A stretch of DNA of 64,000 bases from the human T2T-CHM13v2.0 reference genome, Homo sapiens. Positions 18,774 through 36,348 of this stretch are shown here, in pieces. A program made the translations under genes and the position numbers. Below the pieces are notes generated by a model. The model was given only the letters and a program-made list of their open reading frames with translations, ran no database searches and was not told the origin of the DNA. Location of the stretch: the NCBI RefSeq assembly GCF_009914755.1, contig NC_060925.1, one strand, 5' to 3'. Positions within the stretch are counted from its first letter, which is position 1, and the number at the start of each line of letters is the position of its first letter.

Positions 18774-19676
18774 TCAGTCCAGGATTTAGCATTTCTAACT
18801 GTATGGAAATTGTTTCTTCTATCTGCTCCAAATGTACTTTGCTAGAATCTAAGCCCATTTTCTCATTTTCTCAAAGTTAGCAATAACATCTGTTTAATAC
18901 CTTCTTTGTAACAAGGCCAGATTGAGGGCTTGTGTTTATGCAGTCATTAACAAAACCATTCTTAAACAGTGGTGGTTTTTCGCATCTCAATGACCTAATT
19001 GTAATCTGGCTAATTATTTGATTTAGTTACAAAAGGAAATAAAAATCACACACACACACACACACACACGCATACATAAATATGTACACAACACCTACAT
19101 ATATTCATTTTTTTCTGTTCTTCAATACATACAATCCAGCTTCAGGCCTTTTTATTTTGGTGTGGATTTTGAGGGGAATGTAAAGAAAGATAAATGCTTC
19201 CTTCTTGAGTCCCTTAAAGCAGATGACCTTAAAATGAACGATGGGGAACTCTTTGACAGTCTAGATTAATCTCGGTTTTCCAATCAATAGTTTAATAGGT
19301 TTTTTTTGTTTTGTTTTAGGGGAAGACACAATCCACAGGGCTAGTCCCAGAGTCTTTCCCAGTTTTGAACGTCTCATGCTAAATGTGGTCCAAATACCAC
19401 ATCTACCCAGGGTTTGCTTTTTTTCTGACAACATCCTCCTTCCTGTCTGGGGCTGCTTTTCCAAGCATAGCAAGCACTTGAATTCAACTGAGGGCTGACA
19501 AATTGACCTTACTCCCCAATAAAGCTTGCTCTTTTTAGCTCAGGGCCAGGGAAACACAGGCTGTCACTTGGTCAGATGGAATCTTAGGTAAAGCAATTTC
19601 CTCTTCCGATCCAAGCCTGAATATCCAGTGGAAACTTGTAGAATAAAGCCAGGCTAAAGTGTTGTTCTCAAACATG

Positions 19677-19682
19677 TTTATT
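19677..19682 (-). terminator. DAB1: Distal polyadenylation signal AATAAA
   Basis: tttatt on plus; upstream UGUA elements; lies at the end of the repeat-free UTR block. Confidence 0.75.
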
Positions 19683-19868
19683 TGTAACAGTTTTACATGG
19701 TGTGTTACAGAAATTAATGGAAAATTTCTAAAAATTTTGCTGTTCTGTTGAATGCATTGTACATAAAGTTAAAAATAATGTGTCCATATATGTTAACAAA
19801 CTGTCATCTGAGGTAAAGTTAAAGTAGGTCTAGAAAGGTACTGCAACAGTCATTTTCTCTTTCTCATC

Positions 19869-19874
19869 TTTATT
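19869..19874 (-). terminator. DAB1: Candidate alternative polyadenylation signal AATAAA
   Basis: tttatt on plus, preceded on the mRNA strand by a U run. Confidence 0.4.
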
Positions 19875-22119
19875 AAAAAAATATGTGTCAGAACGCAGAA
19901 ATTGAAATGAACCAAACCCACAGAGTAAACATTTGTTTAAAAGAAGGTGCCCAGTACATTACATGATGGGGTTTCAGGAGACACTGGGATGAGTACGAGC
20001 TATCAAAAAAGTCTTGCGGCATGTAAAGATTGAAGAGCTATGGAGAATGGGGACAGAATGACAGGTGGTGTTTCCCTGGTTTCAAAATTTAAAGTGACAA
20101 ATTTAGTGCTAGTGGAGGATGAGGAATTAACAGTTGTACACATGGATTTTCTATTGATCTAACCAGAACCGTGCAGACTCCCCATGGTCTTTTGGTATTG
20201 GCACCTCAGCTCTTGCTTGGAAATTTCACTGTACTCCTGGGACAGGATACGGTGCTTCCAGGCTCACCAAACAGTGCTTGGAAAAAAATCAGAATTCTGC
20301 CAATGAGAATATGGATGGCAGTTGAAAAACTTGACTTTATTTCCCTTACTTTAATGCATCACTTGGGCATCTATCTTCTTGAAGTTCAGAGCCAGTTACA
20401 TTTTCAATCATGTTCAATGAAAGAGGACAATTCTCCTGGACTTTCACCTTCTGCTAGGAAATTAACTCCAGATGGTATACCTGAAACAGCAACATCAGCC
20501 AGAGTTCACTTTGAATGTGTCAGAAGCAACCCAAAGAATTGGTATAATGGTGTGATACTGCAAGACAAACTCAAGACAGCCATATTGAGGGAGAAGATAG
20601 CACCACTTGTTTAGAATCAAATCATAGGCAACAAAGCAATTTAAGCAATTTCCCATGGGAACTGCCTATCTTACCAAATCCCCAGAAAACAAACTGGTCT
20701 CAGGCCAACTCTTATGGTCATTCCACCTTTCCCATCTTCCCGTTCATGTGAAAGGGTTACCTAATCATAAAATGTTTGCTCATTTCTCAAGAAACTCTGT
20801 GGACCAACAGGTGATAGCTACAGAGGGAGGTAAACGGCCCTTCTCACTTTTCTGGTTCTTCGGACCTTCCACATTAGGATGATATTGACATATATTCTTG
20901 AATAGACGTTTGGTCAGTTTATCTAACTGAAAAAAAAATTAGACTCCTGTGACCTGATAGTGTAAAATGTGGGCTTTAAATGATAACCATTACCTTCATG
21001 TATCACTTTTCGCTTTGTGAACAAGTATACAATCATTTTTCAAATGAATCTCCCAAATCATTTTAGTTTCTATTGATATGAAGAATCAAATGCAGGCCTA
21101 TTCAAATCAATTGTCTCAATGGAAATTCTACTTTTCAAATCTAAAAACCAAATAATAATAATTATCCTCAAATCCAATTAATCACATGAATCTTTAAAGT
21201 TTTCTTCTTAGTGTTAAAACACTTTCAACATACTGTAACTGCATAGGAACATCAGGAAAACACACTTGACCTGTATAACAATTCTCTGTAGGGCAAAAAT
21301 ATATAGATTCTTTATGAAAATCATGTGCTAAACATACGAACCAAACACTGCACTTTTTGTCTCATAAGTGTAAAAAAAGGAAGCTTAGCCTCTTCTGTTT
21401 CACGTACAAACAGTCCAGTGATTTATATCGGGGGTAGGTGGGAGTGGGGAGGTGGGAGAGTTTCAGAATCTGAATTCTTCAGAATGTGAATTGTCTTTTT
21501 CTTGTGTTGCACGTAGGGTGGGGACTCTCGTGGAAAGGCTAGATGATGGAGTCACGTGCTCCCTTCCCGTTCACTAGCTGCTGATTGGCCAACTGCTCCT
21601 GCCAGCTGTCCCTGCACTCCAGCTTCCTACCATATGCTCCAGAATAACGTCTGGAAAGTGAGCCCCATCCATCAAGTTTGTCACACCTTGCACTCAATCT
21701 GCTACCTTCTCTACAGTGTAATGGCATTATTAAAAATCATTTTCATTAACATTTATATTTACAAAAAAAAGACAATTTTTTTTCATTAGAACTCCTTAAA
21801 GCCATTTCCCTTAAATATTTAAAGAGTTTAATGGTAAGGTTTTTTTTTCAAGTTATAAAATAAAAATCCCATTTGAATTTTCTGATGTACAAAAAGAGAT
21901 AGAGATGAACCATTTGGACCACAGAATCAGTTTGTTATTCTGAATATTTATGCCACCATTGTTCCATTAGAAAGTTGGTTTTTAAGATCCAAAACCACAT
22001 TACCAGAATTGTACCAGAATTATTTGGCAAATGACTTTTCTTTGAAAATGGCACGTGGAGAAGACACTTGTCTGCATAGCAACACAGCAGCAAGATATCG
22101 GAAAAATAAAAAATATCAT

Positions 22120-22125
22120 TTTATT
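22120..22125 (-). terminator. DAB1: Proximal polyadenylation signal AATAAA (short ~0.9-kb last exon)
   Basis: mRNA strand reads GTACAATAAAATG...TTTTTTATTTTTCC followed by the GU-rich TTGCTGCTGTGTTG. Confidence 0.6.
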
Positions 22126-24897
22126 GTACTTAGAGTTTAGAGCTTCTTAAGAAATCAGATGCATTTTTCATCTTTCTCATCAATGGGATCTGATGTCTTT
22201 TCCTACTCACAGAATGAAGGTTCGTACTGAAAGCTGTCTTTCTTCACCAGGATGCAGAATAGCTAAAGGACTGTTTTGGCAACATTCGTGATCATAATGA
22301 ATAATCAACCACTTATTTGTCTTGTAATTTCAAGTTAATTCATTTCACTGAGGCTTTTTTTCTCCCCAGTTAGATTTCTTCACCCATATCTAAAAAAAGT
22401 CAAAAGCAATACAAAAATTTGTACACCTATTAATTTTCAAACATGACAAAAAAAGGAAAGGGGGGAAAATGGCAGACCAGGCCCCATGGAGTGACAAAAA
22501 ACACATCATCCTATGTGAAAAGGCATATGGATGATGATATTGTGGTCACAGAAGACCCTTTGCTTTTGCTTAAAGAAGTCAGTTCCAACCCTGTTGTAAT
22601 CCTCTGATGCCTGTCACTCCAAATTTGGTGTCTCAACAGTGGTCAACAGGTAGAGAAATAAAAAGGGAATTAATAATTTTGCACACTGAGTCATCTTAAA
22701 CCCAGCTATGAGGGCTCAAATATTTGTTGGGTAAGCATTTGCTTGATTTCTGATTTAATGTTGGGTGGATCTTTCTATACTTTTTTTGTGTGCTGCCATA
22801 GATATCTGCCATTGGTTGCCAAAAATGCTTAGTTCCCTCTTCTGAGCGAGTTCCATTGGGCAATCATGAATTTCTTGTGGGAAGAGGTGAAAGAATACAA
22901 GAGAGCCTGTCGTGATGCTGATGTCCATGCCAGTCTTGAGCACCCACCACGAGCTCGCATCGATGCTATTTCTTAGGTCTGTTGATCTGCGCGTACAGAG
23001 GCTCTGGCTCCTGTGGATAAAGGAACAAAGTGAGGCCTGCTCTTTACACTTGCATGGATTTTCTGAGACAGCTTTGGGAAAAGGGGTTTAGGATTAAAAC
23101 AGAAAAGTGACAGTTTATGATGGATGACCTTAGGTTATTTTTGGAGTATTTGATCAGGGTGCATAACATTTTGGCAACATTTTTATTATCCAAAATAGCT
23201 ATGCACTCAGTTCTGTCTTTCGTTTTCAAGTTGGAACTGATTGCCCTGTTAGGGAAGTAGCATGGTATAGTAGGGAGAGTTAGAAAAGCTGTGTCATGTG
23301 GACAAGATACTTATCCTGAGTCTTGGTTTCTCCAACCACAAAATGGGAATAGTACTGTTTATCCTACGGGGTTCTTGAGGGAATTAGAGATTACACATAT
23401 AAAGTATCTAGCACAATGCTTGCTAGCAATACATCTTCAGAAATTGCTAACAATTACCATGAGACAAGTGGACATTTTTCCAACACAGTTTCATAAATGT
23501 CCACTTGAGAACCCTGAAATTCTATTTCAAATTGCTCTTCTACAAATAGTGATGCCTGGGTGCACTGTTGAGCCAGAGAAACAGCAAGTGTGTCTTTGTC
23601 TCTTAATCACAAACTTCTGGACTTGTTTCCATTCAGTCTGAGCCCTCCACTTTGGCCAGTCATTTGCCTGCACCCAGGGGGCTGTCCTGAAACACATACA
23701 GGGATTTTCAACCAGCATGTAATGCAGCAAACCTGCAATCCACACCTAGATAGGAAACAGCGTTCGGCCCTATTTAAACCCCGTCAGACTTCAGCTGATG
23801 TTGAGATGGCTCATTGTGCCTTGGCCAAGCAGATTTGATGGATACTGTGGTTTTAAGCATGCACAGGACCTTCTGTTAAAATTGACCTTTATGCTGTCAC
23901 TCTTGGAGGTCTGTGCCAGAATTAAACGGGCACAATGAAATCCTAATTTTACCATATTTGATATATTAGCTTGTCCCCTGCCTTGTCATATAGGTTCTTA
24001 TTATTTGCTTATTTTCTTGAAACTTCAAAATGAATTGGCATTCTGGGAGCCCCTACCATGTGTCTGGCACCATGCTAGGTATTTTCAAGTACATTGTCTT
24101 TTTATCTCATCACAACAGCCTTGTAAGGCAGATGCTTTATCTCTTTTGCAAGGGTGAAATTAAGCACAGAGAAGTTAAATAATTTGCCCATGGTCACACA
24201 GCTAGTAAGTCTAGAGACATGAGAACTGAAAACAGGGTCCAGGGGCCAGTGCTTTTTCTAATCTTTTACAACAGTGACCATGAGGAGGGAGAGACAGAGA
24301 GAGAGAGACCCCAATCTTTCCATCCATTGGTGCTTCAGAGTTTACAAAGCACCTCATGTCTTATTTATCTGCCTTATAGTCCTGAGGGTGGCTTTTATTT
24401 TTTGAGTCCTCCCTTTGCAGATAAAAACTGAAGTTCTGAAAGGTTGTGTGATCTCAAGGTCATTGTGCTGTCTCTTGTGTGTAGCATATCATATTGCTTG
24501 CTTTCTACTGTAAAGTGGAATGGCCTAGAAGATAAGGTTGTACTGGCCCATCATTGTACAGATGAGGAATCTGAAGTCCTGTGAAGACAGCTTTTGTTTC
24601 TTCAGAGTCACAGGGTTACTTAGTATCCATGCCAAGAGTAGACCCCAAGACTCCTGCCATCAGATCCAATTTCTGGTTCCTCTAGAACTTGTTATGTTTG
24701 TATTCTTCCAGTGGGAAGGAACTTCTTTCCTTGGAGGCACCCTATTATGCAGTGTAACAAAGTGCCAACTTGTCCCTCCATGCCTTCTGCCTGTAGACTT
24801 TCTACTGCCCTTGGAAATGTAAATAAGTACAATCCTTCGTCCAAATGTCTGATGACAGAAAAGTACGGAAGCCCATTCTTCCAAGTCCTACTTCTAG

Positions 24898-35492: not shown

Positions 35493-35580
35493 CAGAAGTG
35501 AAGAACAACCAAAAGGGAAAGCAGATAGCTTAAGGGTAAAGGAGATAAAAAGGACAGATACCTACCCAGACCTGCGCTAT

Positions 35581-35676
<96 letters not shown>

Positions 35677-35976: not shown

Positions 35977-36348
<372 letters not shown>

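What the first reader, a model, noticed from the sequence alone, without database searches (positions are those of the whole stretch)
22966..23010. Hidden in-frame C-terminal tail EPEPLYAQINRPKK* at the start of the 'non-coding' last exon
Seen: from the first base after the acceptor the minus strand reads GAG CCA GAG CCT CTG TAC GCG CAG ATC AAC AGA CCT AAG AAA TAG = EPEPLYAQINRPKK*. Exon 13 ends in phase 0, so skipping exon 14 gives ...SEEQEA-EPEPLYAQINRPKK* (538 aa instead of 555, using the recalled 555-aa form). The segment keeps CpGs in an otherwise CpG-poor UTR. Established: EPLYAQINR closely resembles EPIYA-class Src/Abl substrate motifs (H. pylori CagA EPIYAKVNK/EPIYAQVAK, Bartonella Bep EPLYAQVNK, Pragmin EPIYA) that bind the Csk SH2 domain, and DAB1 signals through Fyn/Src. 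Inference: a splice-switched DAB1 isoform with an extra phosphotyrosine docking site could recruit Csk or SHP2 and feed back on Reelin-activated Src-family kinases. It may also be the ancestral vertebrate C-terminus. I cannot tell whether it is already annotated.
Basis: partly seen in the sequence, partly recalled or inferred. Interest (0 to 1): 0.9.

Follow-up and report, generated by a model that had tools for sequence, protein, structure and literature searches.

The report
Conserved alternative DAB1 tail with tyrosine motif
The first 45 bases of the "non-coding" last exon of human DAB1 encode a real, very old alternative protein end carrying a tyrosine motif like those of bacterial EPIYA effectors; the splice form is already annotated and was cloned in pig, but the motif seems never to have been studied.

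Summary
The minus strand at 23010-22966 reads EPEPLYAQINRPKK* directly after the acceptor. Exon 13 ends in phase 0 and exon 14 is a 111-nt in-frame cassette. Fourteen open codons mean nothing alone: 45% of positions in this UTR do as well.

Conservation makes it real. Of 193 Dab1 cluster representatives fetched, 73 end in this tail with the Tyr intact. These are 33 mammalian exon13-to-tail models (macaque, mouse, rat, marsupials), 25 sauropsid ones, 11 that join exon 14 directly to the tail (10 are birds or turtles), and 4 birds with other junctions. L, Y, A, I and the last K are invariant in 28 aligned sequences. A hemichordate Dab homologue ends in EEPLYATVNKPKK.

The tail is not hidden. A pig liver cDNA (sDab1-Li, 2011) skips the 111-nt exon and stops 45 nt into the next.

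No held paper links Dab1 to EPIYA/EPLYA motifs or to Csk docking. The tail matches BepD at 7 of 9 positions, and the hemichordate tail matches BepE at 9 of 9. Phosphorylation and SH2 binding are inferred, not shown. Human junction reads could not be checked.

The parts
22966..23010 (-). Alternative coding tail EPEPLYAQINRPKK plus stop. Tyr codon 22995-22993, TAG 22968-22966.
   Evidence: The same tail ends 73 of 193 Dab1 cluster representatives. L, Y, A, I and the terminal K are invariant in alignment A1.
23011..23040 (-). Acceptor of the last exon: pyrimidine-rich tract cactttgttcctttatccacag ending in AG.
   Evidence: The pig equivalent is listed as ...agGAGCTG.
36031..36158 (-). Exon 13 (128 nt), ending SEEQEA in phase 0 with donor gct|gtaagt.
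   Evidence: It is the same size as pig exon 15.
35566..35676 (-). Exon 14, a 111-nt phase-0/phase-0 cassette. It encodes [31 protein letters not shown], the stop at 35583-35581, then 15 nt.
   Evidence: Pig exon 16 is also 111 nt and is the exon excluded in sDab1-Li.
35566..35592 (-). 27-nt stretch after the ISPQ codons (gcc ggt agc TAG ata gcg cag gtc tgg). It is absent from the bird and turtle proteins that run ISPQ straight into the tail. It carries the mammalian stop and is in frame with the tail.
   Evidence: translation AGS*IAQVW, then the tail. (sauropsid ...ISPQE[AT]EPLYAQINRPKK).
19660..22965 (-). Remainder of the last exon: 3' UTR in both splice forms.
   Evidence: Hub annotation. 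CpG profile.

Best explanation
The 45 bases are a genuine alternative coding end of DAB1, and they are the old C-terminus of the Disabled family. In birds, turtles and lizards the tail ends every model among the listed hits of the tail-directed search. It is joined either to exon 14 or directly to exon 13. In mammals exon 14 runs 27 nt further and carries a stop, so the main protein ends in ...AGS and the tail sits in the 3' UTR. Skipping the 111-nt, frame-neutral exon 14 joins exon 13 to the tail and restores it. That much is shown by sequence, by predicted isoforms and by one pig cDNA. Inferred: the tail works as a short linear tyrosine motif of the EPIYA/EPLYA class. It would be phosphorylated by Abl or Src-family kinases, and the phosphotyrosine followed by A-Q-I would dock an SH2 protein. 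Csk is the best candidate, because the nearest bacterial and host look-alikes bind Csk. Splicing would then decide whether a DAB1 molecule carries this extra docking site in place of the DPF-containing exon-14 peptide.
For: Sequence and frame.

Conservation: 73 of the 193 representatives fetched end in the tail with Tyr intact. They split into 58 exon13-to-tail models (33 mammals including 4 marsupials, 25 sauropsids), 11 exon14-to-tail models (10 sauropsids and 1 reindeer model) and 4 bird models with other junctions. In alignment A1 the invariant tail columns are L, Y, A, I and the last K. E525, E527 and K537 are conserved in at least 90% of rows.

Outgroup: 4 of the 150 listed representatives from the chicken Dab1 search end in EPLYA[TV]VNKP[KP]K, with a DPF motif 7-13 residues upstream. 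One of them is named, from the hemichordate Glandiceps talaboti. All four carry a PID/PTB domain. They branch outside the Dab1 and Dab2-like groups in a quick tree.

Transcript evidence: pig liver cDNA sDab1-Li has exon sizes 128/111/45, skips the 111-nt exon and stops in the next one.

Motif class: BepD EPLYAQVNK, BepE EPLYATVNK and CagA EPIYAKVNK are printed. BepE phosphorylated on Tyr37 and CagA EPIYA-A/B bind Csk (review passages). The p140Cap EPLYA motif is an Abl substrate and a Csk SH2 site (passages).
Against: No phosphorylation or binding data exist for this tail. The pig study probed only four site-specific antibodies, and it states that sDab1-Li carries only Y185 and Y197.

No human junction reads were available, and I could not establish whether human RefSeq or Ensembl list the form.

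All non-pig support rests on predicted models, which can copy one another by homology.

The two Rhinolophus bat models lose the Tyr through a frame shift (...LCADQQT), a pangolin model reads the exon out of frame, and Rousettus has lost the stop. Afrotherians read LYAHIIKSKK.

Two probable non-amniote Dab1 representatives end in ...SPQVGS and ...SPEAGS. The short end is therefore also old, and no fish or frog tail was seen.

The +3 residue is I, not the V of the bacterial EPxYAxV pattern.

The structure model was too poor to show disorder.
Confidence: 0.55

Rival explanations
1. The tail is a conserved motif that works without phosphorylation. Y-A-Q-I (Y-A-T-V in the hemichordate) fits the Y-x-x-hydrophobic pattern read by the AP-2 mu2 subunit. 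The basic P-K-K end could help bind acidic membranes. On this reading it is an endocytic or membrane signal on an adaptor of LDL-receptor-family proteins.
For: In all four outgroup proteins and in the sauropsid proteins, a DPF motif lies shortly upstream of the tail. That DPF is an AP-2 appendage-binding motif in Dab2 is recalled, not checked. The invariant residues are L, Y, A, I and the last K, so the +3 hydrophobic position and the basic end are both kept.
Against: Invariant A at +1 and the conserved E-P-L before the Tyr are not needed for a Y-x-x-hydrophobic signal, yet they are typical of Abl or Src substrates and of EPIYA motifs. Such signals normally sit on membrane proteins (recalled).
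Confidence: 0.2
2. In humans and other mammals the tail is a relic. It is functional where it ends every listed model (sauropsids). In mammals exon-14 skipping would be rare splicing noise, and the isoform would do nothing.
For: The main mammalian isoform stops before the tail. The tail varies more in mammals than in sauropsids (Q to K, H or T; N to H or I; R-P to K-S; P to C). It is frame-shifted in Rhinolophus. No human transcript evidence was available here.
Against: L-Y-A-x-I and the closing K are still kept in placentals, marsupials and afrotherians. A relic should have decayed over that span. A full-length pig liver cDNA carries the tail. 33 mammalian cluster representatives model it.
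Confidence: 0.15
3. The conservation belongs to the RNA (splice enhancer, UTR element) and not to a peptide.
For: The CpG-rich patch continues 55 nt past the stop. The Rousettus read-through translation still resembles the human UTR translation. This points to DNA-level conservation beyond the ORF.
Against: The peptide is kept in a hemichordate and in sauropsids, where it is plainly coding. Substitutions spare the L-Y-A-x-I core. The frame and the stop position are kept in 71 of the 73 tails; the exceptions are 2 Rousettus models.
Confidence: 0.05

Closest known systems
Pig sDab1-Li (liver Dab1 cDNA, GenBank EF444935; Long et al. 2011, PMC3044655)
   Same: It uses the same splice event. The 111-nt penultimate exon is excluded and the reading frame stops 45 nt into the last exon. 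Exon sizes are 128/111/45 and the acceptor reads ag|GAG.
   Different: The pig clone also lacks exons 7/8 and includes 9b/9c. The paper (passages read) does not discuss the tail peptide or its tyrosine. The present sequence is human, and no human transcript was seen here.
Bacterial EPIYA effectors of the 'KK' subtype (CagA EPIYA-A/B, Bartonella BepD/BepE, Anaplasma AnkA)
   Same: The core is E-P-[IL]-Y-A-x-[VI]-N-[KR]. The human tail matches BepD at 7 of 9 positions, and the hemichordate tail matches BepE at 9 of 9. Several of these bacterial segments bind Csk once phosphorylated.
   Different: The DAB1 tail is a host protein's extreme C-terminus, present in a single copy, with I at +3 in vertebrates. 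There are no phosphorylation or binding data.
Host EPIYA/EPLYA proteins: Pragmin (EPIYA) and p140Cap/SRCIN1 (EPLYA, EGLYA)
   Same: They are cytoplasmic adaptors whose E-P-[IL]-Y-A tyrosine is phosphorylated (by Abl for p140Cap) and binds the Csk SH2 domain.
   Different: Their flanks differ (Pragmin EPIYAES, p140Cap EPLYAAF). The DAB1 tail has the A-x-[VI]-N-K/R flank of the bacterial motifs, and it is present only in some splice forms.
Known DAB1 phosphotyrosine sites (Y185, Y198/200: YQxI; Y220, Y232: YxVP)
   Same: Each is a tyrosine followed by a hydrophobic residue at +3, in the same protein, and a target of Fyn or Src.
   Different: Those sites lie just after the PTB domain and are constitutive, or are switched by exons 7/8. 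The tail site is about 300 residues away and is switched by exon 14.

Membership tests
DAB1 exon-14-skipped isoform (pig sDab1-Li type C-terminus) | Penultimate coding exon is a frame-neutral cassette of 111 nt, flanked by a 128-nt exon ending in phase 0 | tested here: met
   (human 128 and 111 nt). (pig 128 and 111 nt).
DAB1 exon-14-skipped isoform (pig sDab1-Li type C-terminus) | Last exon gives 14 codons plus a stop in that frame, and the peptide is conserved | tested here: met
   Pig lists 45 nt.
DAB1 exon-14-skipped isoform (pig sDab1-Li type C-terminus) | The junction is present in human transcripts | not testable with these tools
   No RNA-seq or human transcript table was available. 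The nearest evidence is two predicted Macaca fascicularis isoforms with the identical tail.
EPIYA-class tyrosine phosphorylation motif | Core E-P-[I/L]-Y-A | tested here: met
   (EPLYA), compared with the printed motif table. The P is replaced by S in marsupials (ESLYA).
EPIYA-class tyrosine phosphorylation motif | Flank A-x-V of the EPxYAxV pattern reported as under-represented in mammalian proteomes | tested here: inconclusive
   Vertebrates have I, not V, at +3. The hemichordate and three unnamed homologues have V. The pattern is quoted from the review.
EPIYA-class tyrosine phosphorylation motif | Lies in an intrinsically disordered region | tested here: inconclusive
   The AlphaFold2 model of a 538-aa tail isoform shows no secondary structure after residue 190. 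However, mean pLDDT is 32.8 and even the PTB domain scored below 50, so the model says nothing reliable.
EPIYA-class tyrosine phosphorylation motif | Tyrosine phosphorylated by Src-family or Abl kinases in cells | not testable with these tools
   The pig study used only antibodies to pY185, pY198/200, pY220 and pY232.
EPIYA-class tyrosine phosphorylation motif | Phosphorylation-dependent binding of SH2 proteins (Csk, SHP2, Crk) | not testable with these tools
   No held paper links Dab1 with Csk docking or EPIYA. That the Csk SH2 domain prefers A/T/S at +1 and I/V/M at +3 is recalled, not checked.
Y-x-x-hydrophobic sorting signal | Y, two residues, then a bulky hydrophobic residue | tested here: met
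   YAQI and YATV or YAVV. Binding to AP-2 was not tested.

The most novel reading that the evidence does not exclude
The Disabled C-terminal motif DPF...EPLYAx[VI]N[KR]PKK is an ancient phosphotyrosine docking site, at least as old as the deuterostomes. It would bring Csk (or another SH2 regulator) to Dab-receptor complexes. It would also be the endogenous template that the 'KK-type' bacterial EPIYA segments (CagA A/B, BepD/E, AnkA) imitate, matching them more closely than Pragmin does. Mammals would then have put this site under splice control, through a stop codon in exon 14, which removes it from the main brain isoform.
Probability: 0.2. Interest if true: 0.8.

Novelty: new member of a known kind. 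Interest (0 to 1): 0.5.

Why it matters
DAB1 signalling is understood almost wholly through five tyrosines next to the PTB domain. A sixth tyrosine, deeply conserved and switched by splicing, at the far end of the protein would add a new input or feedback point to Reelin, Src-family and Abl signalling. This applies above all to the peripheral tissues where the pig form was found, and to birds and reptiles, where the tail ends every listed model.

It matters for the EPIYA field as well. A host protein whose ancestral end is letter-for-letter the BepE Csk-binding segment would be a better candidate for the mimicked motif than those proposed so far.

Common cloning designs cannot see the isoform. 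The human RT-PCR study read here placed its reverse primer on the exon-14 stop.

The splice form itself is not new.

Tried and rejected
I used the 42-aa exon 13 and then the last 40 residues of a returned 538-aa isoform instead.
- The search with the hemichordate's last 40 residues found only that protein itself: 1 hit among 10 candidates. It gave one organism name and no further tail-bearing taxa.
- Bar et al. 2003 (JBC), Gao and Godbout 2013 and Costagli et al. 2006 are not held. They may describe this end in human, mouse, chicken or zebrafish.
- The general search (78 papers; I saw the listing of the best 25) and the exon 14/15 search (2 papers, listing only) showed nothing on this end.
- The structure prediction failed, with mean pLDDT 32.8.
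- The tree is only the quick version, midpoint-rooted and with long branches.
- No vertebrate genomes or RNA-seq were at hand. Nucleotide alignment, PhyloCSF-type scoring, junction counts and a test of the bird donor site were therefore not done.
- I considered stop-codon read-through, since the 15 nt after the stop are in frame with the tail, and use of the CAG|GC site after ISPQ in mammals. One reindeer model, P0166, uses that site. I set both aside as unsupported.

Full report
**What is in the sequence**

Read on the minus strand, the last DAB1 exon begins at 23010, directly after ...ttatccacag. Its first 45 bases translate to EPEPLYAQINRPKK followed by TAG. Exon 13 (36158-36031) ends ...SEEQEA before gtaagt, in phase 0.

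Exon 14 (35676-35566) is 111 nt. It encodes [31 protein letters not shown], then a stop at 35583-35581, then 15 further exonic bases.

Openness alone carries no weight. 45% of positions in this same UTR have 14 or more open codons, and the neighbouring frame of the exon is open for 84 codons.

The CpG argument is weak. Six of the exon's 29 CpGs lie in its first 100 nt, but four of those six come after the stop.

**Is it coding? Evidence from relatives**

I searched the large protein collection twice.
- With the 42 residues of exon 13: 609 hits, of which the best 120 were listed.
- With the last 40 residues of a returned 538-aa vole isoform whose end is identical to the human prediction: 383 hits, of which the best 120 were listed.

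Together these gave 193 cluster representatives:

| End of protein | Count |
|---|---|
| Exon 13 joined to the tail | 58 |
| Exon 14 (...ISPQ) joined to the tail | 11 |
| Other junctions joined to the tail (birds) | 4 |
| Usual ...S end | 93 |
| Frame-shifted tail reading ...LCADQQT | 3 |
| Unspliced fragments or other ends | 24 |

The 58 exon13-to-tail models are 33 mammalian and 25 sauropsid. The mammals include Macaca fascicularis X19 and X24 (tail identical to human), Mus musculus X3, Rattus norvegicus X5, shrews, bats, a whale, cattle, an armadillo, an elephant, sirenians and four marsupials.

Of the 11 exon14-to-tail models, ten are birds or turtles, including three chicken isoforms. One is an unreviewed reindeer model.

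The 3 frame-shifted tails are two Rhinolophus species and a pangolin model.

The second search was aimed at the tail, so these proportions are not frequencies.

In a 28-sequence alignment the tail columns L, Y, A, I and the last K are invariant. Three further columns (E525, E527, K537) are conserved in at least 90% of rows. Variation sits at the second residue of the tail, and at Q (K, H, T), N (H, S, I), R-P (K-S, R-C) and the penultimate K (V).

Every sauropsid model among the listed hits of the tail-directed search ends in the tail, whether or not exon 14 is included. In mammals only the exon-14-skipped form does.

**How far back it goes**

A search of the 50%-identity representative library with chicken Dab1 returned 150 listed proteins. 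Four of them end in NEEPLYATVNKPKK, TEEPLYAVVNKPKKT or QEPLYATVNKPPKN[QH]. In each, a DPF motif lies 7-13 residues upstream, as in the sauropsid ...SDPFGEPTGDTISPQEAEPLYAQINRPKK.

One of the four is named: an uncharacterised protein of the acorn worm Glandiceps talaboti, a hemichordate. The other three could not be named. All four carry a PID/PTB domain. In a quick, midpoint-rooted tree they fall outside both the Dab1 and the Dab2-like groups. That tree has long branches and is only indicative.

Dab2-like proteins end in ...DPFGNPFA. The simplest reading is that DPF...EPLYAx[VI]N[KR]PKK was the end of the ancestral Disabled protein and was kept in Dab1.

Two Dab1 representatives are equidistant from mammals and sauropsids (73-77% and 66-69% identity). 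They branch outside amniotes. They end in ...SPQVGS and ...SPEAGS. The short end is therefore probably old too. I saw no fish or frog protein with the tail. Which end came first within vertebrates is not settled here.

**It is already described**

Long et al. 2011 (PMC3044655; abstract and passages read) cloned from pig liver a cDNA called sDab1-Li. In it 'exon 16 was excluded ... and it stopped at exon 17'. Their exon table lists 128 nt, 111 nt ('stop codon of sDab1') and 45 nt ('stop codon of sDab1-Li'), with acceptor ...agGAGCTG. Those sizes are exactly the human ones.

In the passages I read, the paper treats sDab1-Li as carrying 'only' Y185 and Y197. It probes four known sites and does not mention the tail tyrosine. 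Its tissue qPCR targeted exons 10/11, not this junction.

A human fetal retina study (PMC3232236, passages) placed its reverse primer on the exon-14 stop, so it could not see the form.

Bar et al. 2003, Gao and Godbout 2013 and Costagli et al. 2006 were not held. They may say more.

**What the tail resembles**

A printed table of effector motifs lists BepD EPLYAQVNK, BepE EPLYATVNK, CagA EPIYAKVNK and EPIYTQVAK, and AnkA EPIYATVKK, grouped as a 'KK motif'. Human EPLYAQINR matches BepD at 7 of 9 positions, and the other two differ conservatively. The hemichordate EPLYATVNK matches BepE at 9 of 9.

A review (PMC3593179, passages and one section read) makes four relevant statements:
- BepE phosphorylated on Tyr37 binds Csk, as do CagA EPIYA-A/B.
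- Pragmin is the proposed host counterpart.
- EPxYAxV was reported as under-represented in mammalian proteomes.
- Pragmin's EPIYAES does not match that pattern.

In p140Cap, the EPLYA tyrosine is an Abl substrate and a Csk SH2 site (PMC3561454, passages). A 2026 paper finds that EPLYA motifs with proline at +3 bind RasGAP and Crk.

No paper in the library joins Dab1 to these motifs:
- 'EPLYAQ' occurs in one paper, on effectors.
- 'EPLYA' occurs in 20 papers, 18 of which were listed, none of them on Dab1 by title.
- 'Dab1' with 'EPIYA' co-occur only in one reference list.
- 'Dab1', 'Csk' and 'Reelin' co-occur in 8 papers. I opened only the best-ranked one, and its Dab1 passages report no Dab1-Csk binding.

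Sequences printed only in figures or supplements would escape these searches.

**How it most likely works**

Shown: a frame-neutral cassette exon decides between two ends, and the tail peptide is under long-term constraint centred on L-Y-A-x-I and a basic end.

Inferred: the tyrosine is phosphorylated by Abl or Src-family kinases (E at -3, P at -2, L at -1, A at +1). The phosphorylated Y-A-Q-I then docks an SH2 protein, with Csk first among candidates. The Csk SH2 preference for A/T/S at +1 and I/V/M at +3 is recalled, not checked.

Including the tail removes the DPF-bearing exon-14 peptide in mammals, but not in sauropsids.

Rival readings:
- A phosphorylation-independent Y-x-x-hydrophobic or membrane signal.
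- A decaying relic in mammals.
- Conservation at the RNA level.

The frame shift in horseshoe bats and the looser mammalian sequence show that constraint in mammals is weaker than in sauropsids, though not absent.

**What failed or is missing**

The AlphaFold2 model was unusable, with mean pLDDT 32.8, so disorder is not shown. No transcript data, vertebrate genomes or phosphoproteomes could be consulted. Human use of the junction is inferred only from macaque, rodent and pig.

**Verdict**

The tail is a real and ancient coding end. The splice form is already annotated and in print, so it is not 'hidden'. The reading of it as an EPIYA-class docking site is plausible, apparently unpublished, and untested.

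Noticed in passing
window 35566-35592 (minus strand): The 27 nt after the ISPQ codons (AGS, stop, IAQVW) are a multiple of three. The exon-14 stop is therefore the only barrier between the main reading frame and the tail: read-through of that TAG would also append the tail. Marsupials and two probable non-amniote Dab1 proteins read V-G-S-stop here (GTN after the Q or E codon). This looks like a read-through of an older GT donor.
   Followed up: partly
window 35960, 35759, 35302 (minus strand): Three TGCATG (Rbfox-type) hexamers lie within 1.2 kb around exons 13-14. Two are in the 354-nt intron 13 and one is about 260 nt downstream of exon 14. The window average is 0.30 per kb. They may regulate exon 14.
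   Followed up: no
window 22911-22965 (minus strand): Four CpGs lie in the 55 nt just after the tail's stop, in a UTR that is otherwise CpG-poor. The Rousettus proteins that have lost the stop read on through a similar sequence. There may be a conserved UTR element here.
   Followed up: no
P0176, P0186 (Rhinolophus), P0035 (Smutsia), P0131 and P0133 (Rousettus): There are lineage-specific disruptions of the tail. Two horseshoe bats share a frame shift at the Tyr codon (...LCADQQT). A pangolin model reads the exon in another frame. Rousettus has T for A at +1 and has lost the stop.
   Followed up: partly
P0164, P0167, P0169 (birds); human intron 13 start at 36030: Some bird models insert VSSNK between exon 13 and the tail. 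This looks like a 15-nt downstream alternative donor of exon 13. The human intron begins gtaagtgac (V-S-D).
   Followed up: no
P0166 (Rangifer, 566 aa): This is the single mammalian model that joins ...ISPQ directly to the tail. That join would need the CAG|GC site after ISPQ. It may be an annotation artefact.
   Followed up: no
window 21517-23029 (plus strand, hub table): An exon of the lncRNA LOC112267900 lies antisense over the tail, the acceptor and 1.4 kb of the DAB1 3' UTR.
   Followed up: no
P0001-P0014, P0019, P0020, P0031: These are short unnamed ORFs from metagenome-type sources. They read mammalian exon 13 straight into intron 13 (SEEQEAVS...), which suggests host DNA in those collections.
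   Followed up: no
window 22756-23009 (minus strand, second frame of the last exon): An 84-codon open frame starts one base into the last exon. No upstream exon phase reaches it, and it was not searched further. It is probably chance.
   Followed up: no
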